Shown here: piece after piece, positions 10,230 through 26,157 of the stretch | Position numbering within the stretch: position 1 is the first letter of the stretch | How the letters are laid out: every line of letters starts with the position of its first letter | Sequence record: OP595146.1 | Source of the DNA: Escherichia phage vB_EcoM_DE17 | Strand: one strand, 5' to 3' | DNA length: 64,000 nt | Translations under genes and position numbers: made by a program | Notes under the pieces: generated by a model | What the model saw: only the letters and a program-made list of their open reading frames with translations | The model's database searches: none | What the model was told of the DNA's origin: nothing

Positions 10230-11785
10230 TAAAATTTATCGGTTGTCCCAACCTCTGGGTCACCATCATATGTGAATAAAAATATCTACCCTTCTTAACA
10301 ACCTCCTTAATCTTACTCTCTATATAGTTATATAGTACTATATAGTATCTTAGTATCTATCTAGTGGTCTTAATAGCCCCTCTGTATAGCCCTTCTAAAC
10401 ACTCTTCTAACAAGCCTTCTTAACAACCTATACAATCACATTAACCATCTCTCTATACCCTCTTAGAAGCTCCTATACACCTCTTAATCTCTAGGTTAGC
10501 TATGTTACCCTCTATAGGTGTTCACTAGGTATTACTAAGCCTCTATATAGACTGTTTTAACAAACTTAACAGGAATATCTTTACAGACCTTATCTCACAA
10601 GGTCTAACACGGTACTAACAAGGTATCTTATAAGCCTGTTTATGCCTGTATTTTTAAAAGACTGTCTAGGTAATTATTCAGAATTTTAAAATTTTTATAA
10701 AATAGGACTATCAAGTCGTTTTTTAGGGTCTTTGAAGGAACTGAAAAATATCTGTCTAGGATGTATATCTGCTTGGTAGCCCTTAACAGCTCCCTTACCA
10801 TCCCTTTGCAGAATTTTAAAATATCCTTAACAATCTCTTAATAGTTCTTACAACCTCTTAACATCTCTTCAGAGGTCTTAACAGATTCTTAACAGTTTTA
10901 ACAAGAGCTTAACAGTTTCTTAACAGTTGATACATAGGCTTTACAGAGTCTTAACAGATGACTAACAAGAGCTAACAAGTTAATTTTAAAGAGTTATTTT
11001 GTTAAGATAATTAACAAGTTCCTAACAAGTGTTTAACCTTTTTAACAAGCTATTAACATGGTCACAGTGGTTGTTTACAAACACAACTTATCTCTTTCTT
11101 ATCGTCCCCTTTCCCTCTTAGTGATTCTCTAAATAGCCCTCTTAAAAGCTCTCTATAGCCCCTTATAAGCTCTTTTAAGTCTCTTCCTAGTAATTACACC
11201 CCAACTATGTAGACACCTCTTTATAAGGCTTTACAGGAGCTTTTAAGGCTATGCTAAAGACTCTTACAAGGCTTTTACGTGGTCTTAACAGAGATTTAAC
11301 AAGGGGCTAACAAGTCTCTAACAAGCATAACTATGTAGGGATTGTTAAGAAATTGTTAAGAGAATGTTAAGGGGGCTAGCATTTACGTAACTTTATAGCC
11401 TCTTTTACGTAACTTTTAAGCCCCTATAACATACTTTTAAGACACTAACAAGCCCTTTTTAGATATTCACAAGATAACTAACGAGATGATAAAGCTTACA
11501 CCCTTATAAGATTCTTTTGAGGCTATAGGAAGCTTTATAAAGGGCTTTTTAGAGTGGGTTAATGCAATCCCTTAAGTTAGGTTGATAAGTCTGTTATAGG
11601 GCTTTATAGAGCGTTTAAATGGTTGCCCTTCCCTTTCGGGTTATGGGCTTTTATTTAAGTTGATTTGATAAGAGGTTATAGAGTAGACTATAGAGTTATT
11701 GTTTTTAAGGTACGAGATAGATTCTGTCGAATAAGTGGGATAGATTCTGGAAAGGAAAGGGATTGTATAGAGTCTATTACATAGA
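10230..11785. repeat. ORF-free, repeat-dense region with strand compositional skew
   Basis: No ORF of 60 aa or more in any frame across ~1.6 kb; plus strand pyrimidine-rich and G-poor around 10260-10560; many copies of CTTAACA(G/A), TAACAAG, CTTATAAG and CTTTTAAG, with inverted TTGTTAAG copies near 11340-11375. Confidence 0.7.
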
Positions 11786-11842
11786 CGTAAAAAAGCCCCT
11801 ATGAGAAAGGGGCTGTAAAGGTATCTGGGGCTATTTAGCCCC
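11786..11842 (-). terminator. tandem terminator hairpins closing the minus-strand small-gene array
   Basis: On the minus strand, GGGGCT-AAAT-AGCCCC then AGCCCCT-TTCTCAT-AGGGGCT followed by TTTTTT. Confidence 0.55.
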
Positions 11843-11852
11843 GTTGCGTCGA

Positions 11853-12101
11853 TTAGTTGTACCCTTGTTTGCTGTAGTACAGGGAGACAATCAAATCACC
11901 CCAATAATGGTAATGATGTTCATCGTTTAACGCCTCTTTTACTGCATCTTTCCAGAAGTCATCAGTAGGGTTATAATCTGGGATAACTTGCTTAATAACT
12001 GTCTTCACTAATGAAAAGCATTCATCAGTTCCACCAATATCAAATTTAACGTCCAGAGTGTAGCAGCCATAAGCATTAACAGTAGCGCGGATAGTAGCCA
12101 T
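11853..12101 (-). CDS. hypothetical small protein (array gene)
   Basis: 82-aa ORF preceded by the conserved cassette. Confidence 0.6.
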   Translation of the reverse strand: MATIRATVNAYGCYTLDVKFDIGGTDECFSLVKTVIKQVIPDYNPTDDFWKDAVKEALNDEHHYHYWGDLIVSLYYSKQGYN

Positions 12102-12166
12102 TTTTGAATCTCCTAGTTTAAGGTATTTATCTAGTGGGAGGTAATAACCTCCCGTTGATTAGTAAT
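12102..12166 (-). promoter_or_regulatory. intergenic cassette type A: hairpin plus conserved translation-initiation region
   Basis: Fills the 65 nt between the upstream stop and the ATG: GGGAGG-TAATAA-CCTCCC hairpin then the conserved ...TTAAACTAGGAGATTCAAAAATG. Confidence 0.6.
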
Positions 12167-12430
12167 TTACTGCATGTTGGCGTAGGTTGCAAGTCTTTTT
12201 TCGTTGTATTTTGTCAGAATCTCACAAGATAATACATCGTACTTTGTAATAGCGTTGCCTTTGTCGAGGTCAAAGAATCCGAATGCTTTACCGTCTTTGA
12301 ATCCGACAACTTCGTAAGATTCTTTAATGATTTCACCATTGAACAAATCACTTTCGATACGGTGGAATAGCGCTACATCCTCTTTGTCGGTTGCAATTTG
12401 TAAAAGTGTGGTCAGTTCGACGTGTTCCAT
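12167..12430 (-). CDS. hypothetical small protein (array gene)
   Basis: 87-aa ORF preceded by the conserved cassette. Confidence 0.6.
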   Translation of the reverse strand: MEHVELTTLLQIATDKEDVALFHRIESDLFNGEIIKESYEVVGFKDGKAFGFFDLDKGNAITKYDVLSCEILTKYNEKRLATYANMQ

Positions 12431-12491
12431 TTTGAATCTCCAGTTTAGGATTTTATTTAGTGGGGGAGGTCATCCCCCGTTGATTGACAAT
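12431..12491 (-). promoter_or_regulatory. intergenic cassette type A
   Basis: GGGGGA-TGACC-TCCCCC hairpin then CACTAAATAAAATCCTAAACTGGAGATTCAAAATG; nearly identical to the copy at 13023. Confidence 0.6.
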
Positions 12492-13022
12492 TTACAGACT
12501 TTTGATTGTCTCGTCAATATCTTTTTCAATTTCTCTTAAAGTTTTTTCTAAGTTCTTGATATTCAGCATTAACCCCTCTCCCAGTGTCTTAGCGTAACCA
12601 TTTGGGCGATGGTCATAAAGCTCGATTTCTTCCACTTCGTAAAGGCTGACATTGAAGCCCCCTACCCCGTAGGCTGTGGATGAAGTGCCTTCCGGTGCTT
12701 TGTAGTATTTATTGAGATTCTTTAAAGAGCGCTCGTAAGCCATACGATAACCGTTTAACACTGTTTTGGTGCAATCGCGTACACTTTCACACTGTGCCGC
12801 ATACTTTTCTAAGAACAGCGGGAGGAGTTCCGCTACCGCTTGCATGAAGTGACGAACAACGAAAGTAGACATATTACGGCGGTGAATGTAGAAAACACCC
12901 GTATCAGATTTAGTGATAGTTGCGAAATGTTCACCATTGCAACGGAATTCATAGGTATCTTTTACAGGCTTGGACATTACACGATTTGAACGAATGTAAT
13001 TGATTGCTTGAAACTTGTTCAT
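12492..13022 (-). CDS. hypothetical protein (array gene)
   Basis: 176-aa ORF preceded by the conserved cassette. Confidence 0.65.
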   Translation of the reverse strand: MNKFQAINYIRSNRVMSKPVKDTYEFRCNGEHFATITKSDTGVFYIHRRNMSTFVVRHFMQAVAELLPLFLEKYAAQCESVRDCTKTVLNGYRMAYERSLKNLNKYYKAPEGTSSTAYGVGGFNVSLYEVEEIELYDHRPNGYAKTLGEGLMLNIKNLEKTLREIEKDIDETIKSL

Positions 13023-13090
13023 TTTGAATCTCCAGTTTAGGATTTTATTTAGTGGGGGAAGTCATCCCCCGTTGATTAGTAATTTACTTG
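13023..13090 (-). promoter_or_regulatory. intergenic cassette type A
   Basis: Same hairpin plus initiation region; followed by ~150 nt of AT-rich spacer. Confidence 0.6.
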
Positions 13091-13238
13091 TTTTAATTTG
13101 TCTTTGCAAGCAATTTTTTAAGTTTATCTATAAAGAATCTTTTAAGTAAATCCCTTTTAGATAAACCCCCTCGAACAAATGTACTATTGTCAAGGGGTAT
13201 CGTCAAGTAATTTTTTAAAGTTTTTTATAAGTTATTGA

Positions 13239-13580
13239 TTAACTGATGAATATTTTTTCAGGTTTTACATAACTGATACGCTGGCTTTTTAGCAAGTCAT
13301 CCCAGATTAGCGCGGCAATGTGCCCATATCCGGCCTCACGTAACCCCTTCATCGTTTCAACTCGACTCTCAAAACGATTTGCGTAGTACTCGCTATTCAG
13401 TGTCGTTTTATTCCCTTCGTTATCTGTATGGATGATTTGCATTACCTGAAAGGGGCTTACATCCTCGCCTTTGTTCCACTGCTCAAAGTATTTTAGGCAC
13501 TGCATAGGTGACATCTTATCACTAACCTGAGTTGACCAAGATGAATTCTCTTTATCGGTAATTACAGTTACATAAGCCAT
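13239..13580 (-). CDS. hypothetical protein (array gene)
   Basis: 113-aa ORF preceded by the conserved cassette. Confidence 0.6.
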   Translation of the reverse strand: MAYVTVITDKENSSWSTQVSDKMSPMQCLKYFEQWNKGEDVSPFQVMQIIHTDNEGNKTTLNSEYYANRFESRVETMKGLREAGYGHIAALIWDDLLKSQRISYVKPEKIFIS

Positions 13581-13669
13581 TTTTGAATCTCCAGTTTAGG
13601 ACTTTGTTTAGTGGGGAAGTTCATTCCTTCCCCGTTGATTGACAATTTACAGATTTTTATCAGGCTTGT
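13581..13669 (-). promoter_or_regulatory. intergenic cassette type A variant
   Basis: GGGGAAG...CCTTCCCC hairpin plus the conserved initiation region. Confidence 0.55.
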
Positions 13670-13903
13670 CTAGTCTTTTTCAATGATAATTTCATATTGG
13701 CCGTCCACGCTGTCAAAATAGATACCGTCTTCATCTTCTGTCTTAAAGTAACATTGTATATCATCACTGGCGGGATAATCTTGCCTTGCTATCTGGCAAA
13801 CTTGAATAGCATTTTCTTTACTCCCTGTAAACTCCTCAAGCCCTTTAAAATCGCATGAATGACCGTTACAAATAGAAAGGATGAGATAAATGGTTGTCAA
13901 CAT
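13670..13903 (-). CDS. hypothetical small Cys-containing protein with hydrophobic N-terminus
   Basis: 77-aa ORF; N-terminal MLTTIYLILSICNGHSC looks like a signal peptide; a different hairpin (GCCCC-TACAA-GGGGC) lies upstream. Confidence 0.5.
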   Translation of the reverse strand: MLTTIYLILSICNGHSCDFKGLEEFTGSKENAIQVCQIARQDYPASDDIQCYFKTEDEDGIYFDSVDGQYEIIIEKD

Positions 13904-13969
13904 GATTTAAGCCCTCTAAAAGCCCCTACAAGGGGCTGATTAGTGTTTATAAGGTGATTGCATAGGTTT

Positions 13970-14512
13970 TTAGAAAAAGCTCTTTAAATCCTCTTCTGCA
14001 ATGTTTCCTGTCAGTGTATCCATGATGTCACAAAAAACCTGAATACTGTCTGACTGTTGAACACTTTTAGCGAGAAGCTCCAGAGACTCATCAAGACAGT
14101 TTAAATTTGGGTTATCCAGTGAAGGAAGACAAAAAGGTGAAAACATAGCGTTAAACTCTGTTGTATAGACCTTTTTAATCCAATTTACATCAAAGTACTC
14201 TGTAAAACTTGCTAAACTCGACATATTATCACAAGAATAATCATCATTTAGCTCATCCTCTGGAATATCGAGTTCTAAGATAACAATATTTTGGGTTTTC
14301 ATCTGGAAAGCTGCGGTGATAGTGGCATTTCCTAGAGCTTGTTGGATACCTTCTGATGCTATTTCTTCCTCATCGTCGCCATAGATTTTATTTTCTGGAT
14401 ACACGTAAAAATTGCCGTCCATATCCGAACAATTCCATGCGCCTGATGGTTTATCACCGTTATTAATCAGGTTGATGAAGTTTTCTTGAGTAGTTCCGTG
14501 ATAGCATTTCAT
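13970..14512 (-). CDS. strongly acidic hypothetical protein (array gene)
   Basis: 180 aa; D/E-rich runs (DDEEE, EDELNDD, EEDL) with few basic residues. Confidence 0.65.
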   Translation of the reverse strand: MKCYHGTTQENFINLINNGDKPSGAWNCSDMDGNFYVYPENKIYGDDEEEIASEGIQQALGNATITAAFQMKTQNIVILELDIPEDELNDDYSCDNMSSLASFTEYFDVNWIKKVYTTEFNAMFSPFCLPSLDNPNLNCLDESLELLAKSVQQSDSIQVFCDIMDTLTGNIAEEDLKSFF

Positions 14513-14597
14513 TTTTGAATCTCCAGTTTAGGATTTAGTGGTAAAGCTCTTTATCTGGGGCTTACTTTATCGAACTATAAGCCCCTTGTAAAGTACT
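14513..14597 (-). promoter_or_regulatory. intergenic cassette type B
   Basis: GGGGCTTA...TAAGCCCC hairpin plus the same initiation region; near-identical copies at 15308 and 17169, variant at 16790. Confidence 0.6.
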
Positions 14598-14801
14598 TTA
14601 ACGATTATTTTTGACAACTTTTAAAACTGCAAGATAACCTAAGCAATAAGAATCACCGAAGAGAGTTCTACCCATGAAAGAATCCTCTTTGATATCCTTT
14701 GCAGTGACAGTTTTTTCTACGCCGTGGGAAAGGACTACATCCCCAACTTTGATGTCTTTGATGTGTGTTGTTTCAATGGTTAAGCCGTTAATATTAGCCA
14801 T
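14598..14801 (-). CDS. hypothetical small protein (array gene)
   Basis: 67-aa ORF preceded by the cassette. Confidence 0.55.
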   Translation of the reverse strand: MANINGLTIETTHIKDIKVGDVVLSHGVEKTVTAKDIKEDSFMGRTLFGDSYCLGYLAVLKVVKNNR

Positions 14802-14878
14802 TTTAGAATCTCCTAGTTTAAGGATTTTACTTAGTGGGGAAGGTCATTCCCTCCCCGTTGATGAGTAATTTAATCTAT
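14802..14878 (-). promoter_or_regulatory. intergenic cassette type A
   Basis: GGGGAAGG...CCCTCCCC hairpin plus initiation region. Confidence 0.55.
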
Positions 14879-14902
14879 CTAGAAATCAATGTCAACAGTT
14901 TT

Positions 14903-15307
14903 TTAGAGTTCTGCGTAAATTGCGTCACAAATATCACGAAAATCATGATTTGTTAAATTACGTTGCAACCATGTTGCAAAAAAGTCAGCAATTGCAAAAT
15001 TTGCGTCATACTCGACAGATAGCCACACTTTCACGGCAAAACGAAACATTTTTAAATCAAGCTCTTTATTCATTACCTTTGATTTGCCTAACATGTCAGC
15101 CATTTCATATTGTGCACCGTCTAGCGTGATACCTGCTGCAACGTCAGCCAATGAGTTTTTTACACTTTCAACGTCTAAGATAACACTTTGAATCTTCCCG
15201 ATAATATTGTGCAATGTCTCATCAGGTGCTGATGATGTAATAACATTAATCCGGTTAACGGTTAAACGTGCTTTTAAGATTGATAACTCACGGTTATTAA
15301 TAGTCAT
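14903..15307 (-). CDS. hypothetical protein (array gene)
   Basis: 134-aa ORF preceded by the cassette. Confidence 0.6.
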   Translation of the reverse strand: MTINNRELSILKARLTVNRINVITSSAPDETLHNIIGKIQSVILDVESVKNSLADVAAGITLDGAQYEMADMLGKSKVMNKELDLKMFRFAVKVWLSVEYDANFAIADFFATWLQRNLTNHDFRDICDAIYAEL

Positions 15308-15392
15308 TTTAGAATCTCCAATTTAGGATTTAGTGGTAAAGCTCTTTATCTGGGGCTTACTTTATCGAACTATAAGCCCCTTGTAAAGTACT
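15308..15392 (-). promoter_or_regulatory. intergenic cassette type B
   Basis: Near-identical to the copy at 14513..14597. Confidence 0.6.
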
Positions 15393-15665
15393 TTATACTA
15401 AATGCAGCTTTTTACCTTTTACTATGATGTAACTTGATGCGCTATTGCCGCATACATCTTGATAAATTCTGCGCAAACGGCCTTCGTAGTGGACTTTCCA
15501 GCTAGTTGGAATCTTTTTCCCGTATCCGGTAGCAGTTTTTTGGAGTCCTGCTACTTGCCAATCTAAGATATGTTGCTCAGCTTGTAAATCTTCAAAGTGC
15601 ATCACACCATCAACATAGTGACGTAGAGTGACATTTAAAGTACGACCGTTGTTAGTAGTATACAT
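15393..15665 (-). CDS. hypothetical protein (array gene)
   Basis: 90-aa ORF preceded by the conserved initiation region. Confidence 0.55.
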   Translation of the reverse strand: MYTTNNGRTLNVTLRHYVDGVMHFEDLQAEQHILDWQVAGLQKTATGYGKKIPTSWKVHYEGRLRRIYQDVCGNSASSYIIVKGKKLHLV

Positions 15666-15688
15666 TTTTGAATCTCCTAGTTTAAGGC

Positions 15689-15847
15689 TTATTTTGACAG
15701 TTCACTAATTAAGACATCAAAGATTATATCATTATCTGCTACAGTTGCAACACCAGTGATATAATCAATTTCTAAGATAACAACAACTTTCGTACATAAA
15801 CCGTCATCTATATCATTCCAGACAACTTTATCACCTGCACAAAACAT
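15689..15847 (-). CDS. hypothetical small protein (52 aa, below the ORF-track cutoff)
   Basis: Hand-translated MFCAGDKVVWNDIDDGLCTKVVVILEIDYITGVATVADNDIIFDVLISELSK; has the same conserved initiation region at its 5' end and the cassette core follows its stop. Confidence 0.45.
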   Translation of the reverse strand: MFCAGDKVVWNDIDDGLCTKVVVILEIDYITGVATVADNDIIFDVLISELSK

Positions 15848-15920
15848 TTTTTGAGTCTCCTAGTTTAAGGACTTTACTTAGTGGGGAAGGTTATTCCCTC
15901 CCCGTTGATGTGTAATTTAG
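15848..15920 (-). promoter_or_regulatory. intergenic cassette type A
   Basis: GGGGAAGG...CCCTCCCC hairpin plus initiation region. Confidence 0.55.
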
Positions 15921-15938
15921 TCTATCTAAAAACCAGTG

Positions 15939-16271
15939 TCAACAGTTTTGTTTTCGTTTGCTCAATTCTTGAACAATTACAGCGTAGTAGTCTTTTAAGT
16001 CACTGATATTTAAAGCATTTATCAGAGAATTATAATCATCGACTAACTGGAAATCATCCTTGAAGATGTCACTTATCTGATAGGTTTTCGCTTTGAATCT
16101 GAAGCTCATCTCTAGCCGCTTTATTTGCTCATCACTGAGACGCCCTAGAAAGCTCTCTACAAGGTTATTGCTAACCTGCTGTGTGATTGCCTTATTTGCT
16201 AGATTATAGGCTTTATATGCCTTATATAGCGCTAAAATGGCAATGATTGCAGTGATACCAGTCATTAACAT
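15939..16271 (-). CDS. hypothetical membrane-anchored protein (array gene)
   Basis: 110 aa; hydrophobic N-terminus MLMTGITAIIAILALY; start overlaps the upstream gene (no cassette). Confidence 0.55.
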   Translation of the reverse strand: MLMTGITAIIAILALYKAYKAYNLANKAITQQVSNNLVESFLGRLSDEQIKRLEMSFRFKAKTYQISDIFKDDFQLVDDYNSLINALNISDLKDYYAVIVQELSKRKQNC

Positions 16272-16561
16272 GGTGTTTCCTCTTTACGTGATACTTTGCC
16301 ATTTACAGTTATCTCATAGGATTCTAATAAATCGCTTTTAGACTTTACAGGGCTTTTGAAAGTATCATCATAGATATTGACTTGTAATACAGGTTTTTTA
16401 TATTCCCTGCAACTATTCCATAAGCAAATCACTACACGACGGCCTTTGATTTTTCCGTGTAACCATTCCATAACATCATGACTATTCCTTGATGTCTCGA
16501 TAAAATCGATTTTGTTGAGTAACTTGCTTAAATTTTCACGGACTTTATTTGATAATTTCAT
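16265..16561 (-). CDS. hypothetical protein (array gene)
   Basis: 98-aa ORF; conserved initiation region overlaps the stop of the gene upstream. Confidence 0.55.
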   Translation of the reverse strand: MKLSNKVRENLSKLLNKIDFIETSRNSHDVMEWLHGKIKGRRVVICLWNSCREYKKPVLQVNIYDDTFKSPVKSKSDLLESYEITVNGKVSRKEETPC

Positions 16562-16576
16562 TTTTGAATCTCCAGT

Positions 16577-16789
16577 TTAGGATAAAATAGTAATCGTAAA
16601 ATTGTAATGACCATTAAGCTGATAAACATAACAGTTAGAGAATACACCAACTAACCGAGGTTTTCCATAAATTTTCATGCGCTCTTTAATCTCTTTGAGA
16701 GATTTCAAACCTGTAAGGTCTTTATTGAAATAGTCATCATCTGTGAATAGGACTTGTGAGGCGGTTTTCAGTTTTTGATTAATGTTCAT
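16577..16789 (-). CDS. hypothetical small protein (array gene)
   Basis: 70-aa ORF preceded by the cassette. Confidence 0.5.
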   Translation of the reverse strand: MNINQKLKTASQVLFTDDDYFNKDLTGLKSLKEIKERMKIYGKPRLVGVFSNCYVYQLNGHYNFTITILS

Positions 16790-16877
16790 TTTTGAATCTC
16801 CAGTTTAGGATTTAGTGGTAAAGCTCTTTATCTGGGGCTTAAGATACCAACTTTTAAGCCCCCTGTAAAGTACTTTA
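16790..16877 (-). promoter_or_regulatory. intergenic cassette type B variant
   Basis: GGGGCTTAA...TTAAGCCCC hairpin plus initiation region. Confidence 0.55.
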
Positions 16878-17168
16878 TCAGTTAATTTTCAGCTTTGCAT
16901 GACCTCTCATTGTACGAATGGGGGATGTTAAGGCTACGCGTCTAATATATGCCTTTTTCGTGTGTACATTTGCCTTCCCGATAGTGTTTACACATGTAAA
17001 AAGGTTTATTGGTGAATTTTTTAACTTCAACTGTCTATCAGTCTTCACGCCCCATCTTACAGCAGATTGTTTTCCGTTGTCAACCACTTTCCCGCCTAAC
17101 TTTTTCGCCATAATACGAGCGTCATCACGAGTTTTTGCAGGAATTACAACGTTTTTGATAATAGCCAT
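16878..17168 (-). CDS. hypothetical basic protein (array gene; start set by cassette)
   Basis: The track ORF extends 5 codons into the cassette; the ATG at 17166-17168 sits at the conserved position (MAIIKNVVIPAKTRDDARIMAKKLGG...). Confidence 0.55.
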   Translation of the reverse strand: MAIIKNVVIPAKTRDDARIMAKKLGGKVVDNGKQSAVRWGVKTDRQLKLKNSPINLFTCVNTIGKANVHTKKAYIRRVALTSPIRTMRGHAKLKIN

Positions 17169-17256
17169 TTTTAAGTTCTCCAATTTAGGATTTAGTGGTA
17201 AAGCTCTTTATCTGGGGCTTACTTTATCGAACTATAAGCCCCTTGTAAAGTACTTT
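17169..17256 (-). promoter_or_regulatory. intergenic cassette type B
   Basis: Near-identical to copies at 14513 and 15308. Confidence 0.6.
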
Positions 17257-17637
17257 TTATTTAATTTTGAAGATTGTCACGTAGCCATCACTGCCGATGA
17301 TTTGTGATACCCCAGCTTTTTCTACTTGATAGCCCATATTTTCCAGATGATAGATAGCATCGTCATAACCATATGCACCGCCCTGATAACGTCGCTTATC
17401 ACATCTTACTAAAACCTTTCCACGTCCTGCCAGTGCATTTAGTACAGCTTTTTCACTTGATAGCGTACCATCTATCATGGTTGCCGTGTAATGGTTGATT
17501 TTATTCCCGTTGATATCATACTTGAAATTGAACGAGTGAACAACGATAACGTTACCTTTAAAATTCTCATCAAGTGACTTCTCCAGTGCGTTGCGAAAGT
17601 TGTCTTTATTGATGAATTTAGGTGCACGGTATGCCAT
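17257..17637 (-). CDS. hypothetical protein (first gene of the array)
   Basis: 126-aa ORF preceded by a cassette. Confidence 0.6.
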   Translation of the reverse strand: MAYRAPKFINKDNFRNALEKSLDENFKGNVIVVHSFNFKYDINGNKINHYTATMIDGTLSSEKAVLNALAGRGKVLVRCDKRRYQGGAYGYDDAIYHLENMGYQVEKAGVSQIIGSDGYVTIFKIK

Positions 17638-17705
17638 TTTAGAATCTCCTAGTTTAAGGTTAGTTATTTAGTGGGGAAGGTTATTCCCTCTCCGTTGATG
17701 CAAAT
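17638..17705 (-). promoter_or_regulatory. intergenic cassette type A (most upstream copy)
   Basis: GGGGAAGG...CCCTCTCC hairpin plus initiation region, at the head of the array. Confidence 0.55.
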
Positions 17706-17853
17706 ATTAGATAACCATAGCCAAAGAGTCAAGAAAAATTTTAAAAATATTTTTGAAAAAACTGTAATGGAACGGGCGCACGCGACTACCACAAAACAGA
17801 ACTACAATCAAGAATTATTTTTCAATCCGCTACAAATTTTTCTCTTGACTTTT

Positions 17854-17884
17854 GGGGAGAGGGGGAGTAAGAGGGGAAGAGGGG
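17854..17884 (+). other. G-quadruplex-forming motif (four G4-5 runs)
   Basis: GGGGAGAGGGGGAGTAAGAGGGGAAGAGGGG on the plus strand, in otherwise AT-rich intergenic DNA. Confidence 0.5.
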
Positions 17885-17908
17885 CTTGGCTGGCTATCTA
17901 TAAAAACC

Positions 17909-18086
17909 TACCTGCACAATTCTAAAATGATTTTTCTTGCCCGACCTGAGCGGGGTCTGCACGTTTTGAAAATGAAAAAGCTCTTTGGAGATTACCTGCA
18001 CAATTTGAAAATGAATTTTCTCTTTGGAGTTCAAAATTATCTCTACAGATTTCTCTACAGAACTCTACCTGCACAATCCTAAAATG
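17909..18086 (+). repeat. three direct repeats of ACCTGCACAAT-NNN-AAAATGA
   Basis: Copies at about 17909, 17994 and 18066, spaced 72-85 bp apart; too few and too imperfect for CRISPR. Confidence 0.5.
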
Positions 18087-18160
18087 AAAAAACCCTCCTT
18101 ACCTGAAAAATTTAACAGATAAGAAAGGTTTAGCCTATTGTGAATATTCTACAGAGTTTC

Positions 18161-18946
18161 TTAGTTCTTTGCGTCTAAGAAGGTAACTTCTTGTGATGAG
18201 AAAATCTCCTCGATATCCTCATCAGTTCTTGCATAGATATAAGTATCTGCATCACTGCCAAATGTTACTGCAATCCTGTGATTGCTCTTCGACAGGTGGG
18301 TAACTAGAGCGTTACTTAGAGACATCTTTTCAACCGGAGGGTTACTTTGATGTATCTTGCCTTTTCTTCGTCTGAAGAGGGTAACTGCATCATCAGTGAA
18401 CGTTACTACACCTGCAAAGTATTCTGGTTCACAGTAGTTCTTCCAACCTGAGAGTAACTTGTGGTACAACTCTCCTTCGTAGACATATAGATAAACATCT
18501 ACACTCTTCATCACCTGATTAATGATAACGGTGACGGCTTGAGGGTCTAGTCCACCGATACCTGCACCAATCATAGGTAACCCAACTTTCTTCAACTGAT
18601 TAACTTCACAGTACCTGTTAAGCTGTTTCAAAGATGATTCTAAAGCACTGTATCGGGCATCTTTACCAGTCTTAAGCTGAGTGTAAAGGTTAGCTATACG
18701 GCCTTGTTTTAAACGTGCTACAGAGAAATTACCTAGTAAGTTCTCACAGGGCTTGTGGCCTATGCCACCTGCATACAGATAAACTTCTGTATCAGTCTCA
18801 TATGCTTTTGGGTAAAGTTTAGAAATCTTGTCAGCGATACCTGCACCCATTAAATTCATACAGTTGCAACCGTGACCAATGACGTCAAACTTACCTTTAT
18901 CAAATGCGGCAAAGATATCACCATTGATGATTTTTATAATACCCAT
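18161..18946 (-). CDS. macro-domain (ADP-ribose-binding/processing) protein with C-terminal extension
   Basis: 261 aa; N-terminal IINGDIF...DVIGHGCNCMNLMGAGIA and later GLPMIGAGIGGLDP follow the macro-domain pattern (G-D-I-x, H/N-x-x-N-x-x-x-G-x-G-I-A, second Gly-rich loop). Recalled pattern, not a search hit. Confidence 0.6.
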   Translation of the reverse strand: MGIIKIINGDIFAAFDKGKFDVIGHGCNCMNLMGAGIADKISKLYPKAYETDTEVYLYAGGIGHKPCENLLGNFSVARLKQGRIANLYTQLKTGKDARYSALESSLKQLNRYCEVNQLKKVGLPMIGAGIGGLDPQAVTVIINQVMKSVDVYLYVYEGELYHKLLSGWKNYCEPEYFAGVVTFTDDAVTLFRRRKGKIHQSNPPVEKMSLSNALVTHLSKSNHRIAVTFGSDADTYIYARTDEDIEEIFSSQEVTFLDAKN

Positions 18947-19147
18947 TTAACATCTCTCCCAAGATTCTTTATCTTCTGAAGGTTTTACACGCTGCCCTTC
19001 GTGGTCTACCCAGATGCACCCACAACCTTCACAGATTACTGGCATTGCATAGCCAGCTTTAAAGTCATCTTCAGTGATAAGACCCTTTAAGTCACCTGTA
19101 TCACGTCCGAACATTTCGATAGCACAGTCTTTGCAGAAGTCAGCCAT
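18947..19147 (-). CDS. small Cys-rich zinc-ribbon-like protein
   Basis: 66 aa with C-x-x-C ... C-x-G-C-G-C; translationally coupled to the macro-domain gene. Confidence 0.5.
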   Translation of the reverse strand: MADFCKDCAIEMFGRDTGDLKGLITEDDFKAGYAMPVICEGCGCIWVDHEGQRVKPSEDKESWERC

Positions 19148-23711: not shown

Positions 23712-23790
23712 CTTATTACTCTCTCTTGTTAATTAATAAATCATTTTGTAAGGCTATTCTAAGGGGCTTTGAAGCCCCTTGTCAAACACT

Positions 23791-26157
23791 TTAATCGTAA
23801 ATTGTAGTCCCTTCTGGAACACACTTCACATCAAAGCCTAAGAACTTACTCACTTCGATGGGTGACACTTTATTCCAATCTAAATGAGAAAGCAAGAAGT
23901 TTTCTTGTTTTCTTTTTGAAAGGTAGTTTGTCACCTTGATGACCATACGGTCACCAGCTTTCTTAATTTTCTTGTACAGCTTTGTATCATTATCAAGACA
24001 GCTTTTTAAATCTTGCAACACACTAATAGTGTAAGTGTATGCAAAAGGTGCAGCAACGTATTGGATTTTACCAAACATTGCCTCTACAGCATCTTCATTA
24101 CCTTCTAAGAAGATAGTTTTGTTTGTGTCTCGTGAATAGCAATAACCGCGAGAAATCTTCCTGTTATTGAACGTAAAGTTTCTGGCAATAATCCAACTGC
24201 TTGTAAGGTCTAGGACACCATTCATATAGATACGTGTCATATACCTGTTATGATTAATCCAGTGAACATCAGTTAAGCTGTCGTTCAAGAGCTTCTCATC
24301 TACTTCAATCCAGTCTTCTGGTATCTTTTTCCAATTTGCTTTTCGGAAAACATAGACTGTCTTTTCAATGACATTGGCAACTGACTTAGCTACATCTTCT
24401 GGAGATGAGCAAAAACATTCACCATCAACTGTGTCGCCTACTGCCTTAATATAAAGCTGAGGCTCTTCAATCGTATCTAAGTCTTCTGACACCTCTTTGT
24501 ATGAAGCTACGCCTTCTGCTGGAACAGCTTTCCAAAGTTTTACAACACCTCTTACAGCTTCTTTACGCTGATAATGGTGTTCCTTATCAGACATCTTCAC
24601 AATCTTTAACAAGCTTTTATCAAGTTTGTGAAGATTGATTAAATCATCTAGCTCTTCCTCATTAGAGAATACAAAGACGATACCATTGTATCTGTGAAAC
24701 AGACTTGACTCACTGGCATAGTCTCGACATGCACCACGCAGAATCTGATTGCGTCCTACAGTCTTCTCAGTACCATTTTTATTGCGACGGTCATTTATAA
24801 CAAACAAAAACTGTTCAATTTGACTTTTACGCATTGCGCCAAAGATATTGAACATACTTGCCTCTTGAGTGTAGGAAAGCGCTGTTGCACGAATCTTACT
24901 TTCTAAAGAGTTGAACTTAACATAAGCAACTGGATTATAAAGATAATCTACTTTAGGGATATTGTTCCCGTTCCTATCAACCTTAATATTGCCTTTACCG
25001 TCACGTTCGTAAATGACTGAGCCGTCTTCTGCGTAGATAATTCCACGACGAATGTTTAGTAATTCTTCTTCCAGAGAATCAAGCTTAACACCACCCCACT
25101 CTAGCTTTGGACACACAGCATTAAACATCTCTCGTGAGTTCAAGCGTAACTCAGCATAAGCCTGTGCAGCATCCATGAGTGTAGGTTGGCTATTAACTTT
25201 CTTGATAACATCCTTTGTAATTGCTTCAGTTATCTTTTTGGTAGCCTCAATGATAACATTTTTTGTCGTATCATTCATCTGCAATGCTTCACGAGAAGCT
25301 GCAATAGCAACTGAGCCAATAGGCATGTAGATGTTTACAAGGTCTACGCTCCTGCGGAAAAATTCTGGCAATACTTTGAAGAAATCATCACCAAGTAATG
25401 CTTCCATATTAACAGGGTAGGCAATGTTACCCATCACCACATTAAACTCTGTCCTGTTACCACTAGAACGCCAGCTTTGTTTGTGAATCATGGCATCATA
25501 AACACCTTCTTCACGGGCAATGACATTCATATCTGCTAATACATCGTCATACTCGATATTACTTTCTGGTTTTACAGCAAAGTATGAGTATACGTTACCA
25601 GCTTCTTCAAAGAACTTTGAGATGCGGTGGTCAGCAACTGCTACACGTACAGCTAAACCATTAGGCTCTTTTGTTGGGTTGGTGGTCAGTTTAGTTACTT
25701 GAGGAATGCCATTCTCAAGGTAAACAGAGTACTTATTAACCACACCATCAACATAGCTAGACACTGTGAATGACTGAGCAATTGCAAATGGGGATTTTGA
25801 GCCGATACCCATTGCACCAATGTAGTCATTAGAGTCATTCTTCGTAGAAGCCCCGTAGTTTAGGTACAAACTCATAACTTTATCATGAGTCAATCCAGTT
25901 CCAAAATCACGGACTTCAAAGTAAGGCTCAAAACGAGTAGGTAAATGCACATGGAACGGGATATTCTCTTTTCCAGCTTCTTTCTGAGCATCTACTGCGT
26001 TACATGACAGTTCACGAATCACTGCCCTTTCTTTAAAGGTATATACACCAGAACTCAAAAGGCTGAACATTTCAGGTGTCATTGTAATCTGTGCTTGAGA
26101 CGTCTCTAAAGAAGTTGAACTCTTAATCACTTCTGCGTGGTCATTTACCATGCGCAT
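23791..26157 (-). CDS. rIIA: rIIA-like protein (GHKL-type ATPase fold N-terminus)
   Basis: 788 aa; AVIRELSCNAVDA, RDFGTGL and SNDYIGAMGIGSKSPFA match the N-box/G1/G2 motifs of T4 rIIA as recalled. Confidence 0.85.
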   Translation of the reverse strand: MRMVNDHAEVIKSSTSLETSQAQITMTPEMFSLLSSGVYTFKERAVIRELSCNAVDAQKEAGKENIPFHVHLPTRFEPYFEVRDFGTGLTHDKVMSLYLNYGASTKNDSNDYIGAMGIGSKSPFAIAQSFTVSSYVDGVVNKYSVYLENGIPQVTKLTTNPTKEPNGLAVRVAVADHRISKFFEEAGNVYSYFAVKPESNIEYDDVLADMNVIAREEGVYDAMIHKQSWRSSGNRTEFNVVMGNIAYPVNMEALLGDDFFKVLPEFFRRSVDLVNIYMPIGSVAIAASREALQMNDTTKNVIIEATKKITEAITKDVIKKVNSQPTLMDAAQAYAELRLNSREMFNAVCPKLEWGGVKLDSLEEELLNIRRGIIYAEDGSVIYERDGKGNIKVDRNGNNIPKVDYLYNPVAYVKFNSLESKIRATALSYTQEASMFNIFGAMRKSQIEQFLFVINDRRNKNGTEKTVGRNQILRGACRDYASESSLFHRYNGIVFVFSNEEELDDLINLHKLDKSLLKIVKMSDKEHHYQRKEAVRGVVKLWKAVPAEGVASYKEVSEDLDTIEEPQLYIKAVGDTVDGECFCSSPEDVAKSVANVIEKTVYVFRKANWKKIPEDWIEVDEKLLNDSLTDVHWINHNRYMTRIYMNGVLDLTSSWIIARNFTFNNRKISRGYCYSRDTNKTIFLEGNEDAVEAMFGKIQYVAAPFAYTYTISVLQDLKSCLDNDTKLYKKIKKAGDRMVIKVTNYLSKRKQENFLLSHLDWNKVSPIEVSKFLGFDVKCVPEGTTIYD

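What the first reader, a model, noticed from the sequence alone, without database searches (positions are those of the whole stretch)
11786..17710. Array of about 15 small genes each preceded by a near-identical hairpin plus initiation cassette
Thirteen intergenic gaps on the minus strand carry the same ~25-nt initiation region (CCTAAACTGGAGATTCAAAATG) preceded by one of two hairpin types, while the proteins are unrelated, mostly 50-180 aa and without recognisable domains. This is the architecture described for PeSL (promoter-early stem-loop) cassettes in T4-type phages, where repeated regulatory modules flank a hyperplastic region and mediate shuffling of small ORFs. Such regions are where host-takeover and anti-defence genes concentrate, so every protein here is a candidate for an undescribed function.
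Basis: partly seen in the sequence, partly recalled or inferred. Interest (0 to 1): 0.8.

Follow-up and report, generated by a model that had tools for sequence, protein, structure and literature searches.

The report
Swappable early-gene cassettes in Felix O1-like phage
In this Felix O1-like phage, 15 small unknown genes are separated by near-standard promoter, hairpin and ribosome-site modules, and related phages gain, lose and swap genes exactly at these modules, the kind of system already described in T4-type phages.

Summary
The window is a Felixounavirus. On the minus strand, between two terminators (18128 to 11788), lie 15 unrelated small ORFs. Thirteen share one translation-initiation module, TAAACT(A)GGAGATTCAAAATG.

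Eleven of the 13 also carry a hairpin; two are bare ribosome sites.
- **Type A (7 copies):** TTGACA-17-TAAATT, then a GC hairpin about 10 nt after the -10.
- **Type B (4 copies):** TTTACA-17-TAAAGT, lying inside a conserved interrupted hairpin of about 59 nt.

This fits the published definition of PeSL cassettes. Across about 35 related genomes the array is hyperplastic. Single ORFs are gained, lost, replaced and occasionally reordered, and about 97% of homology breaks fall inside the modules, half of them in the ribosome-site part. The unit that moves is an ORF plus the hairpin/promoter module on its 3' side.

One ORF (w06) has its nearest relatives outside Felixounavirus in unrelated coliphages. 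All 15 proteins lack known domains.

Promoter activity, hairpin function and the recombination mechanism are inferred, not shown. I rate this a new member of a known kind (PeSL-like cassettes outside T4-type phages), of moderate interest.

The parts
18087..18128 (-). Intrinsic terminator closing the upstream operon (after the Macro-domain 'phosphatase' gene). It corresponds to Felix O1 terminator t13.
   Evidence: Sequence read. Same sequence as t13 in Table 2 of PMC3185647.
17635..17732 (-). Module A1: promoter P1 (TTGACT-17-TAATAT, with an AT-rich tract upstream), then a hairpin (GGAGAGGG/CCTTCCCC), the ribosome-site module and the ATG of w04.
17257..17637 (-). ORF w04, 126 aa, unknown function (phrog_4495).
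17166..17258 (-). Module B1: interrupted hairpin of about 59 nt containing TTTACA-17-TAAAGT, then the ribosome-site module and the ATG of w05.
   Evidence: Covariance-model hit at 17196-17258, 85.9 bits.
16878..17168 (-). ORF w05, 96 aa, unknown function. It has a weak BRCT match below the Pfam cut-off. It is absent from some relatives.
16787..16880 (-). Module B2: hairpin variant with loop AAAGTTGGTATC and -10 TATCTT preceded by TG, then the ribosome-site module and the ATG of w06.
16577..16789 (-). ORF w06, 70 aa. This is a variable cassette, present in only 5 Felixounavirus records. Its next-closest homologs, at 53-58% aa identity, are in unrelated coliphages.
16559..16581 (-). Bare ribosome-site module before w07. 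Its TAA is the stop codon of w06.
16265..16561 (-). ORF w07, 98 aa, unknown function.
15939..16271 (-). ORF w08, 110 aa. It has no module; its start overlaps the end of w07, which suggests translational coupling.
15845..15942 (-). Module A2: TTGACA-17-TAAATT (the TGA stop of w08 lies inside the -35), then a hairpin (GGGGAGGG/CCTTCCCC), the ribosome-site module and the ATG of w09.
15689..15847 (-). ORF w09, 52 aa. This is a variable cassette, present in 7 of the loci examined and absent from most.
15663..15688 (-). Bare ribosome-site module before w10.
15393..15665 (-). ORF w10, 90 aa, unknown function.
15305..15396 (-). Module B3, before w11.
   Evidence: Covariance-model hit of 89.4 bits.
14903..15307 (-). 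ORF w11, 134 aa, unknown function.
14799..14895 (-). Module A3: TTGACA-17-TAAATT, hairpin, ribosome-site module and the ATG of w12.
14598..14801 (-). ORF w12, 67 aa. In relatives it is replaced by, or sits next to, family x13, or is absent.
14510..14601 (-). Module B4, before w13.
13970..14512 (-). ORF w13, 180 aa, ortholog of Bas63 gene 107. There is a possible but non-significant resemblance to the ADP-ribosyltransferase fold.
13670..13903 (-). ORF w14, 77 aa. It has no module. It is preceded by a weak terminator-like hairpin (13921-13937) and has its own GAGGG ribosome site.
13578..13672 (-). Module A4: TAGACA-17-TAAATT (the TAG stop of w14 lies in the -35), hairpin (GGGGAAG/CTTCCCC), ribosome-site module and the ATG of w15.
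13239..13580 (-). ORF w15, 113 aa, unknown function.
13020..13109 (-). Module A5: TTGCAA-17-TAAATT, hairpin (GGGGGA/TCCCCC), ribosome-site module and the ATG of w16. Another promoter-like site (TTGACG-17-TACATT, 13178-13206) lies upstream in the same 216-nt gap.
12492..13022 (-). ORF w16, 176 aa, unknown function.
12428..12517 (-). Module A6: TTGACG-17-TAAATT. The -35 and spacer lie inside the w16 coding end, and the TAA stop of w16 is the first 3 nt of the -10. Then come the hairpin, the ribosome-site module and the ATG of w17.
12167..12430 (-). ORF w17, 87 aa. It is absent from Bas63 and several other genomes, and an unrelated ORF replaces it in REP8.
12099..12192 (-). Module A7: TTGCAA-17-TAAATT (the TAA stop of w17 starts the -10), hairpin (GGGAGGT/ACCTCCC), ribosome-site module and the ATG of w18.
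11853..12101 (-). ORF w18, 82 aa, last gene of the array.
11788..11846 (-). End of the array: a degenerate module remnant (CAACGGGGCTAAATAGCCCCAGATACCTTTAC) followed by an intrinsic terminator (AGCCCCTTTCTCATAGGGGCT plus a T-run). It corresponds to Felix O1 terminator t23.

Best explanation
This is the early accessory-gene array of a Felix O1-like phage, built from PeSL-type cassettes. Each module runs in this order: the stop codon of the previous ORF, a sigma-70-type promoter read by host RNA polymerase, a GC-rich stem-loop, a near-optimal ribosome site (GGAG, 8 nt, ATG), and the start codon.

**What each module type probably does (inferred):**
- **Type A.** The hairpin starts about 10 nt after the -10. 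It therefore sits at the very 5' end of the transcript the module starts, and just after the previous ORF in any read-through RNA.
- **Type B.** The -35 lies in the lower stem and internal loop, and the -10 lies in the loop of an interrupted hairpin of about 59 nt. Only read-through RNA can form this hairpin.
- **Net effect.** I infer that each small ORF becomes an insulated, strongly expressed early unit. The promoter restarts transcription, and the hairpin protects or punctuates RNA ends, possibly as a processing or attenuation site.

**Evolution (shown by comparison):** the same modules are the places where ORFs are exchanged. The most conserved segment, the ribosome-site part shared by all three module types, is the main crossover zone. 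The unit gained or lost is one ORF plus the hairpin/promoter on its 3' side.

General homologous recombination between these short repeats is the simplest mechanism for the exchange. That step is inferred.
For: **Identity of the phage.** The closest records are all Felixounavirus (annotated loci).

**Anatomy.**
- There are 13 initiation modules, confined to this array within the 64 kb.
- All 11 hairpin modules have -35/-10 hexamers with a 17-nt spacer at a fixed offset from the hairpin.
- The upstream ORF's stop codon lies inside the -35, the -10 or the hairpin base.

**Hairpins.**
- Type B folds at -24.6 kcal/mol, z = -4.0.
- Across 40 distinct type B sequences from three genera, 96.1% of pair cells are paired, against 33-55% when partners are slid. 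Five pairs show compensatory changes, and 0 of 500 shuffles reach the covariation score.
- The invariant unpaired bases of type B are the TA of the -10 and the CA of the -35. This argues for a real promoter.
- All 59 distinct type A cores fold, with the hairpin starting 4-7 nt in. Native arm pairings are more stable than swapped arms (0 of 2000 permutations).
- The type B covariance model hits only the 4 array copies strongly in the window.

**Plasticity.**
- Every internal homology break between the window and 12 relatives falls on a ribosome-site module or start codon.
- Of 236 homology-break ends (non-redundant within each query genome; the same event recurs across genomes), 51% lie within -30 to +6 of a module ATG, against 7.7% expected. 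All but 6 lie within -102 to +21.
- Genomes lacking w09 carry one hybrid module.
- Across 41 loci there are many single-ORF gains, losses and replacements. The order of x13 and w12 is permuted, and x27 occupies two different slots.
- The 5' module of an ORF changes with its upstream neighbour, while the 3' module of an ORF stays constant.
- Modules are almost as similar between non-orthologous positions as between orthologous ones. In 57% of comparisons the best match is at a non-orthologous position.

**Other support.**
- w06 is in 5 Felixounavirus records. Otherwise its homologs, at 53-58% aa identity, are in Phapecoctavirus and jumbo coliphages.
- The same design occurs in Mooglevirus and Kolesnikvirus.
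- Felix O1 RT-PCR found genes 16, 20, 21 and 22 of this block maximal at 5 min (PMC3185647).
- Bas63 recombines with donor plasmids at about 30% (PMC11482910).
Against: - No 5'-end or 3'-end mapping exists for any Felix O1-like phage in the library searched. The promoters are consensus matches only.
- The promoter scan of the whole region is not enriched over shuffles: 35 sites found against 26 ± 5.5 expected.
- The hairpins have no U-tract and are not called as intrinsic terminators, so the terminator role shown for T4-type PeSLs may not apply.
- In Kolesnikvirus some hairpins flank the -10, so the promoter's own RNA would lack them. This weakens a general 5'-stabiliser role.
- The backbone gene order is largely fixed, and true reorderings are few.
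- Breaks at gene boundaries would also be favoured by selection alone, and BLAST ends can be drawn into paralogous modules.
- Many counted breaks descend from a few shared events.
- Felix O1 genes 14, 17, 19 and 23 peaked at 25 min, not 5 min.
Confidence: 0.7

Rival explanations
1. The modules are expression signals only. They are kept alike by strong selection for high early expression (promoter, hairpin, optimal ribosome site). ORF turnover happens by unrelated mechanisms such as illegitimate recombination or homing-endonuclease traffic, and selection then keeps only events that fall cleanly between genes.
For: - The ribosome-site module is close to an optimal E. coli initiation region: GGAG, an 8-nt A/U-rich spacer, ATG.
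- The backbone order is conserved in all genomes.
- Breaks at gene boundaries are what selection alone would leave.
- The nearest relatives of w06 outside Felixounavirus carry no Felix-type ribosome site, so its original capture was not obviously by module homology.
Against: - Positions with no obvious function, such as the spacer ATTCAAAA and the linker CCACTAAATCC, are as uniform as the functional ones.
- The orthology signal in the modules is nearly erased: the best match is non-orthologous in 57% of comparisons.
- Closely related genomes carry different hairpin or ribosome-site variants at the same position.
- The deletion junctions are clean hybrid modules.
Confidence: 0.15
2. The type B hairpin is mainly an RNA processing site, like the RNase III sites between the early genes of phage T7. 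It would cut the polycistronic early RNA into single-gene messages that end in a protective hairpin. This concerns what the hairpin does and is compatible with the cassette model.
For: - It is an intercistronic, interrupted hairpin of about 59 nt. It has 20 base pairs arranged as 6 + 5 + 9, with a 1x1 mismatch and a 3x3 internal loop.
- Covariation supports both the lower and the upper stems.
- From my own knowledge, this geometry resembles T7 R1.1-type substrates, which are cut in the internal loop.
Against: - No cleavage data exist.
- No Rfam family matches.
- Type A stems of 4-9 bp are too short for RNase III.
- The invariant unpaired bases fit promoter hexamers rather than any known RNase III determinant.
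Confidence: 0.3
3. The hairpins are transcription attenuators or terminators, as shown for one T4-type PeSL stem-loop. They would limit read-through, so that each gene is driven mainly by its own promoter.
For: The stem-loop of PeSL211/210 cut lacZ expression as strongly as the rrnB T1 terminator (PMC2839356). The type B hairpin can only form in RNA coming from upstream.
Against: - Neither hairpin type is followed by a U-tract, and neither is called by the terminator scan.
- The type A hairpin lies within the first 30 nt or so of the transcript its own promoter starts. If it were an efficient terminator it would abort that transcript.
- Four genes (w07, w08, w10, w14) have no promoter of their own and depend on read-through.
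Confidence: 0.25
4. This is a site-specific, integron-like capture system. A dedicated structure-specific enzyme would recognise the folded imperfect palindrome on the 3' side of each ORF, as integron integrases recognise attC, and would excise or insert ORF-plus-element units.
For: - The mobile unit is an ORF plus a 3' imperfect palindrome of about 59-63 nt. Its structure, rather than its loop sequence, is conserved across three genera.
- T4-type PeSLs form circles of an ORF plus a chimeric PeSL (PMC2839356).
Against: - Junctions are spread across the whole module, with peaks at +1, +5, -1, -8, -22, -31, -69 and -90, rather than at one crossover point.
- Cassettes with only a bare ribosome site on their 3' side (w06, w09, x18) are as mobile as those with a hairpin there.
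- By inspection, there are no attC-type RYYYAAC/GTTRRRY cores.
- No integrase is annotated in the relatives' flanks that I looked at.
Confidence: 0.05

Closest known systems
PeSL (promoter-early stem-loop) cassettes of T4-type phages (Arbiol et al. 2010, PMC2839356; Comeau et al. 2014, PMC4122927)
   Same: - A composite intergenic repeat made of the upstream stop codon, an AT-rich tract, a sigma-70-like promoter, a GGGG...CCCC stem-loop in variable register with the promoter, and then the Shine-Dalgarno sequence and ATG.
- Concentrated in a hyperplastic block of small ORFs of unknown function.
- Indels and replacements between close relatives have their junctions in the repeats.
   Different: - The host phage is a Felix O1-like myovirus (Ounavirinae), with no T4 core genes.
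- The modules fall into two sharply defined hairpin classes plus a bare ribosome-site class.
- Crossovers are mostly in the shared ribosome-site segment. In T4-type PeSLs they were mapped to the stem-loop or the AT-rich part.
- The hairpin/promoter travels with the upstream ORF.
- Promoter activity, terminator activity and mini-circle formation are untested here.
Early region of coliphage T7 (host promoters A1-A3, RNase III sites between genes, strong ribosome sites); from my own knowledge
   Same: A run of small early host-takeover genes is read by host RNA polymerase, with conserved irregular hairpins between cistrons. The ribosome site AGGAGAU with an 8-nt spacer resembles the T7 gene 10 leader.
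   Different: T7 has three promoters at the left end only, whereas this array has 11 promoter-like sites spread through 5.9 kb. RNase III cutting is unproven here. The T7 early region is not known for cassette-wise gene turnover at these sites.
5'-terminal stabilising stem-loops (E. coli ompA 5' UTR; T7 phi10 leader); from my own knowledge
   Same: The type A hairpin is predicted to begin within a few nucleotides of the transcript's 5' end. That is the position needed to block 5'-end-dependent decay.
   Different: The transcription start is only predicted. In Kolesnikvirus relatives the equivalent hairpin straddles the -10 and would not be in the RNA.
Integron gene cassettes (ORF plus attC)
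   Same: The unit of gain or loss is one ORF with a folded imperfect palindrome of about 60 nt on its 3' side. Structure is conserved more than sequence. Cassettes sit in a one-directional array.
   Different: There is no integrase, attI site or attC core sites. Junctions are not at one fixed point. The cassettes carry promoters.

Membership tests
PeSL cassettes | Repeated intergenic composite motif that starts at the upstream gene's stop codon and ends with the Shine-Dalgarno sequence and start codon. | tested here: met
   There are 13 modules, and the stop codons lie inside the -35, the -10 or the hairpin base.
PeSL cassettes | Sigma-70-like -35 and -10 boxes with a spacer of about 17 nt. 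| tested here: met
   All 11 hairpin modules have them: TTGACA/TTGACG/TTGACT/TTGCAA/TAGACA-17-TAAATT or TAATAT, and TTTACA-17-TAAAGT or TATCTT. This is a sequence match only.
PeSL cassettes | AT-rich tract upstream of the -35. | tested here: met
   P1 has a long A/T tract. The other type A modules have GAAAAAG-type A-tracts just upstream of the -35. The tract is weaker for type B.
PeSL cassettes | Stable GC-rich stem-loop (often GGGG...CCCC) within or next to the promoter. | tested here: met
   Folds. Covariation or arm co-variation.
PeSL cassettes | Concentrated in a hyperplastic region of small ORFs of unknown function. | tested here: met
   The modules occur only in the array within the 64 kb. 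The ORFs lack known domains. The array varies among about 35 genomes.
PeSL cassettes | Indels and replacements between close relatives have their junctions inside the motifs. | tested here: met
PeSL cassettes | Promoter activity and terminator/attenuator activity shown in vivo. | not testable with these tools
   This needs reporter assays or RNA end mapping. The hairpins lack U-tracts.
PeSL cassettes | Formation of ORF-plus-PeSL mini-circles during infection. | not testable with these tools
   This needs inverse PCR or deep sequencing of infected cells.
PeSL cassettes | Occurs in T4-type phages (the scope in which the family was defined). | tested here: not met
   The window and all close relatives are Ounavirinae. 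This is a matter of taxonomic scope, not a mechanistic requirement.
Intrinsic (rho-independent) terminators | GC-rich hairpin followed directly by a U-tract. | tested here: not met
   On the minus strand, only the hairpin at 11794-11814 passes the scan. The module hairpins are followed by ACUAA or AGAUAAAG.
T7-type RNase III processing sites | Intercistronic irregular hairpin of about two helical turns with an internal loop. | tested here: inconclusive
   Type B has 20 base pairs with a 3x3 internal loop. Type A stems are only 4-9 bp. Cleavage cannot be tested here, and there is no Rfam match.
Integron attC cassettes | Conserved core sites (RYYYAAC/GTTRRRY), a single crossover point, and an associated tyrosine recombinase. 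| tested here: not met
   No core sites are seen in the modules. Junctions are spread over about 120 nt. No integrase is annotated in the flanks seen; I did not search whole genomes.

The most novel reading that the evidence does not exclude
The array is a phage counterpart of an integron. Each unit, an ORF plus a structured element of about 60 nt on its 3' side, would be captured from unrelated phages and moved as an excised unit by a dedicated structure-recognising factor. Passive homologous recombination would then not be the main route. The hairpin with the -10 in its loop would serve both as a recombination signal and as a promoter.
Probability: 0.06. Interest if true: 0.85.

Novelty: new member of a known kind. 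Interest (0 to 1): 0.45.

Why it matters
- **Scope of the mechanism.** This extends PeSL-type modular shuffling, so far described only in T4-type phages, to a different and much-used group. Felix O1-like phages are used for typing, biocontrol and therapy.
- **Old open question.** The Felix O1 genome paper (2010) listed two of these repeats without interpretation and stated that the phage's transcriptional regulation was unknown. The modules give 11 concrete early-promoter candidates to test.
- **A practical rule.** The swap rule (ORF plus its 3' module, with the crossover in the shared ribosome site) predicts where accessory genes can be inserted or removed without disturbing neighbours.
- **Candidates.** It marks about 25 ORF families as the variable, probably host-adaptive gene pool of the subfamily.
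- **Generality.** A Phapecoctavirus shows a similar design, which suggests a common layout for early accessory genes in large virulent coliphages.

Tried and rejected
- **Rfam.** A scan of 10500-19000 at E ≤ 1 gave only two chance-level hits.
- **Consensus fold of type A.** I replaced it with per-sequence folds and an arm-swap permutation test.
- **My first reading of PeSL.** I first thought the PeSL stem-loop is always upstream of the promoter, which would have excluded type A. The original paper lists five positions, including overlapping the -10 and downstream of it, so I dropped that objection.
- **Hairpins as intrinsic terminators.** Rejected, because there is no U-tract.
- **N4-type hairpin promoters.** Rejected: from my own knowledge those have 3-nt loops and need a virion RNA polymerase, whereas the loops here are 4-11 nt.
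- **Function of w13.** The PDB sequence search found nothing. The model is only moderate (pLDDT 69). Foldseek hits are all non-significant (best E = 0.07), although several are ADP-ribosyltransferase toxins. This stays a hint only.
- **Bas63 knockout screen.** No supplementary tables are held, and the text names only gene 107 of this block.
- **Literature.** Searches for transcription-start data or earlier descriptions of these modules in Felix O1-like phages found only the 2010 list of direct repeats.
- **Retron Eco2 paper.** It mentions Felixounavirus only in a host-range screen and is not relevant.

Full report
**What the window is.** The region 11700-18200 matches 258 phage records, and the close ones are all Felix O1-like myoviruses (Felixounavirus, Ounavirinae). 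The best is KEP1, at 97% identity over 75% of the query (annotated loci). The array lies on the minus strand. It starts after a terminator equal to Felix O1 t13 (about 18087-18128), which follows a Macro-domain 'phosphatase' gene. It ends at a terminator equal to Felix O1 t23 (11788-11814).

**Checking the observation.**
- A degenerate pattern finds 13 copies of the initiation module, all between 12106 and 17656 on the minus strand. There is no convincing copy elsewhere in the 64 kb.
- Fifteen ORFs of 52-180 aa fill the block. They form 15 separate families.
- None has a Pfam domain above threshold. The only hit is a sub-threshold BRCT match for w05. Their PHROG matches (14 of 15; w09 has none) are all 'unknown function'.
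Eleven of the 13 modules have a hairpin, not all 13. Two genes (w08, w14) have no module. Type A hairpins differ in sequence from copy to copy.

**Anatomy of the modules.**
- **Type A (7 copies).** It reads -35 (TTGACA, TTGACG, TTGACT, TTGCAA or TAGACA), 17 nt, -10 (TAAATT, or TAATAT at the first promoter), then about 10 nt ending in ATCAAC. A GC hairpin of 6-8 bp follows in the window's seven copies (4-9 bp across relatives), then ACTAA, an A-rich linker, the ribosome site and ATG.
- **Type B (4 copies).** It is an interrupted hairpin of about 59 nt: 6 + 5 + 9 bp with a 1x1 mismatch and a 3x3 internal loop, -24.6 kcal/mol, z = -4.0. TTTACA sits in the lower stem and internal loop. The -10 (TAAAGT or TATCTT) sits in the loop and the first base of the 3' arm.
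- **Bare (2 copies).** These are the ribosome site alone.
- **Stop codons.** The stop codon of the preceding ORF is built into the module. It is TGA or TAG inside the -35, TAA as the first three bases of the -10, or TAA in the base of the type B hairpin. In three cases the -35 and spacer lie inside the upstream coding sequence.
- **End of the array.** A degenerate module remnant lies next to the terminator.

**Are the hairpins and promoters under selection?**
- I collected 40 distinct type B sequences from Felixounavirus, Mooglevirus and Kolesnikvirus. In this set 96.1% of pair cells are standard pairs, against 33-55% when partners are slid by 1-3 columns. Five pairs show changes on both sides (for example G-C to U-A at two positions). 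None of 500 shuffles reaches the covariation score.
- These sequences are related, so the shuffle count is not a probability. The slid controls and the compensatory pairs still support the structure.
- The unpaired positions that never vary are the TA at the start of the -10 in the loop and the CA of TTTACA in the internal loop. The rest of the loop varies freely. That is what a real promoter would give. Several loop variants even add a TGn extended -10.
- A sequence alignment of type A gave no consensus fold, because stem lengths differ. However, all 59 distinct cores fold with the stem starting 4-7 nt after the core begins. The mean energy is -12.0 kcal/mol, against -3.7 for shuffled cores. 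Native 5'/3' arm pairs are more stable than swapped arms (0 of 2000 permutations).
- No Rfam family matches. A covariance model of type B hits only the four array copies strongly in the window. An exact 19-mer from type B occurs in public viral contigs only on genomes of about 53-94 kb, the size of Felix O1-like phages.

- *Window against 12 relatives.* Every internal homology break falls on a ribosome-site module or start codon: 16785 and 16579-16586 around w06, 15848 and 15687-15694 around w09, and 17631-17672 and 17148-17182 around w04 and w05.
- *Hybrid junctions.* Genomes without w09 carry a single hybrid module. Its left part matches the module before w09, and its right part matches the module before w10.
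- *All pairs of 15 genomes.* Of 236 break ends (non-redundant within each query genome; the same event recurs across genomes), 51% lie within -30 to +6 of a module start codon, where 7.7% is expected. All but 6 lie within -102 to +21. By my arithmetic, that window covers about 27% of the array.
- *More genomes.* I added loci from public viral contigs, giving 41 loci from about 35 genomes; some duplicate GenBank records. The array shows a fixed backbone with many unit changes:
  - zero to three extra ORFs before w04;
  - w05 present, absent or duplicated;
  - w06, a 170-aa ORF (x01), or nothing in the next slot;
  - w09 present or absent;
  - w12, x13, both in either order, or neither;
  - four different inserts between w14 and w15;
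  - w16, w17 and w18 each missing in some genomes.
- *True reordering.* x13 lies before w12 in one genome and after it in two others. x27 occupies two different slots.
- Felix O1 itself has only ten genes in this block, and Bas63 lacks w17.

**What the moving unit is.** The type of module in front of an ORF depends on which ORF lies upstream. The module behind an ORF stays the same whatever follows it.
- w10 has a type A module when it follows w08, and a bare site when it follows w09.
- w07 has a bare site after w06, and type B otherwise.
- w13 has type B after w12 or x13, and type A when w12 is missing.
- w15 has type A, B or bare, according to its upstream neighbour.

So the hairpin/promoter part belongs with the ORF on its 5' side, and the exchange point lies between it and the next start codon. 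That point is the ribosome-site segment, the only part common to all three module types. Modules are also homogenised. Identity between non-orthologous positions (0.81-0.82 for type A, 0.90-0.92 for type B) is almost as high as between orthologous positions (0.85 and 0.91). In 57% of comparisons the best match in another genome is at a different position.

**Foreign origin of one cassette.** w06 is present at 95% identity or more in only five Felixounavirus records. In the one I checked (HY02) it sits in the same slot. Its other homologs, at 53-58% amino-acid identity, are in Phapecoctavirus and in jumbo coliphages of about 350 kb. The Phapecoctavirus copy sits in a run of small genes, most of them (7 of 8) preceded by TTGACA-17-TAAACT or TAAGAT, a GC hairpin and a ribosome site. 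The layout is therefore not unique to Felix O1-like phages.

**How it most likely works.**
- *Shown by sequence and comparison:*
  - the module anatomy;
  - conservation of the hairpins and of the promoter hexamers across three genera;
  - confinement to one terminator-bounded block;
  - cassette-wise turnover with junctions in the modules;
  - the 'ORF plus 3' module' rule.
- *Inferred:*
  - Host RNA polymerase starts at 11 sites in 5.9 kb early in infection. Felix O1 RT-PCR gives partial support, with genes 16, 20, 21 and 22 maximal at 5 min but 14, 17, 19 and 23 at 25 min.
  - The type A hairpin sits at the 5' end of its own transcript and protects it.
  - The type B hairpin forms only in read-through RNA, where it acts as an end-protecting, processing or attenuating element.
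  - Exchanges arise by general homologous recombination between the short repeats. This is plausible for a phage that recombines with plasmid donors at about 30%.
- *Rival roles for the hairpin.* Its precise role is the least certain part. RNase III processing of type B, or PeSL-like attenuation, remain live possibilities. Classical intrinsic termination is unlikely, because there is no U-tract.

**Comparison with known systems.** The modules meet every sequence-level feature of the PeSL definition and the comparative-genomic one. The experimental features (promoter and terminator assays, mini-circles) cannot be tested here.
- They differ from T4-type PeSLs in host phage group, in having two sharply defined hairpin classes, and in the main crossover zone.
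- In the library searched, PeSLs are reported only for T4-like phages.
- For Felix O1-like phages I found only the 2010 listing of a 57-bp and a 39-bp 'direct repeat'. These are the type B hairpin and the type A promoter. The paper gave no interpretation and stated that temporal regulation was unknown.

**Function of the ORFs.** Nothing is established.
- The Bas63 ortholog of w13 (bas63_0107) is more needed on E. coli S17-1. Its authors noted a slight resemblance to an NAD-binding domain.
- My model of w13 is moderate (pLDDT 69). Its best structural matches are ADP-ribosyltransferase toxins, but none is significant (best E = 0.07, TM about 0.3).
- The idea that the block holds host-takeover or anti-defence genes remains a reasonable expectation, not a result.

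**Verdict.** It is a new member of a known kind. I rate the interest as moderate (0.45). It is well supported and useful for Felix O1-like phage biology and engineering, but a specialist who knows the T4 work would not be greatly surprised.

Noticed in passing
window 17909-18087 (-): Three exact copies and one degenerate copy of TCATTTTNRNAWTGTGCAGGTA lie between the upstream terminator and the first array promoter. A 31-nt polypyrimidine run (about 17850-17880) and an AT-rich tract just upstream of the -35 lie next to them. This could be a binding-site array that controls the first early promoter. Relatives annotate tiny ORFs here on either strand.
   Followed up: partly
window 10407-11452 (-): The roughly 1 kb non-coding stretch downstream of the array holds 12 of the window's 18 CTTGTTAR motifs, often 11 nt apart. 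Several GenBank relatives begin or end their linear records 0.9-1 kb past the array. This is probably the genome-end or iteron region.
   Followed up: partly
L019 (Phapecoctavirus phiWec188) 1-2604: The region that holds the w06 homolog is a run of small genes. Seven of the eight are preceded by TTGACA-17-TAAACT or TAAGAT, about 10 nt, a GGGCGG...CCGCCC hairpin and an AGAGAG ribosome site. This is the same design in an unrelated coliphage subfamily.
   Followed up: partly
window 18161-18946 (-): The gene just upstream of the array, annotated 'phosphatase' in relatives, is a Macro-domain protein (Pfam E = 1e-7). It may act on ADP-ribose.
   Followed up: no
window 23746-23794 (-): Outside the array there is a promoter-like TTGACA-18-TAGAAT with a GGGGCTT/AAGCCCC hairpin inside the spacer. 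The type B covariance model hits it only weakly (20 bits).
   Followed up: no
type A hairpins, e.g. window 12462-12480 and 13054-13072 (-): The 5' arm (GGGAGG, GGGGAGGG) looks like a Shine-Dalgarno sequence. The loop plus 3' arm (GATGACCTCC) resembles the 3' end of 16S rRNA (GATCACCTCC, from my own knowledge). This may be a coincidence of purine-rich and pyrimidine-rich arms.
   Followed up: no
L015 (Erwinia phage Roscha1, Kolesnikvirus): Some promoters here have the -10 as the hairpin loop itself (TTGACA-18-TAAAAT flanked by GAGGGG and CCCCTC). The shared ribosome-site module is different (AACAACCCTTAWAAAGGAATCAAAAC ATG). The design is conserved, but the sequence has been replaced.
   Followed up: partly
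window 4476-5017 (+): Three direct repeats of about 250 bp lie inside a plus-strand coding region (family D13). I did not check what they encode.
   Followed up: no
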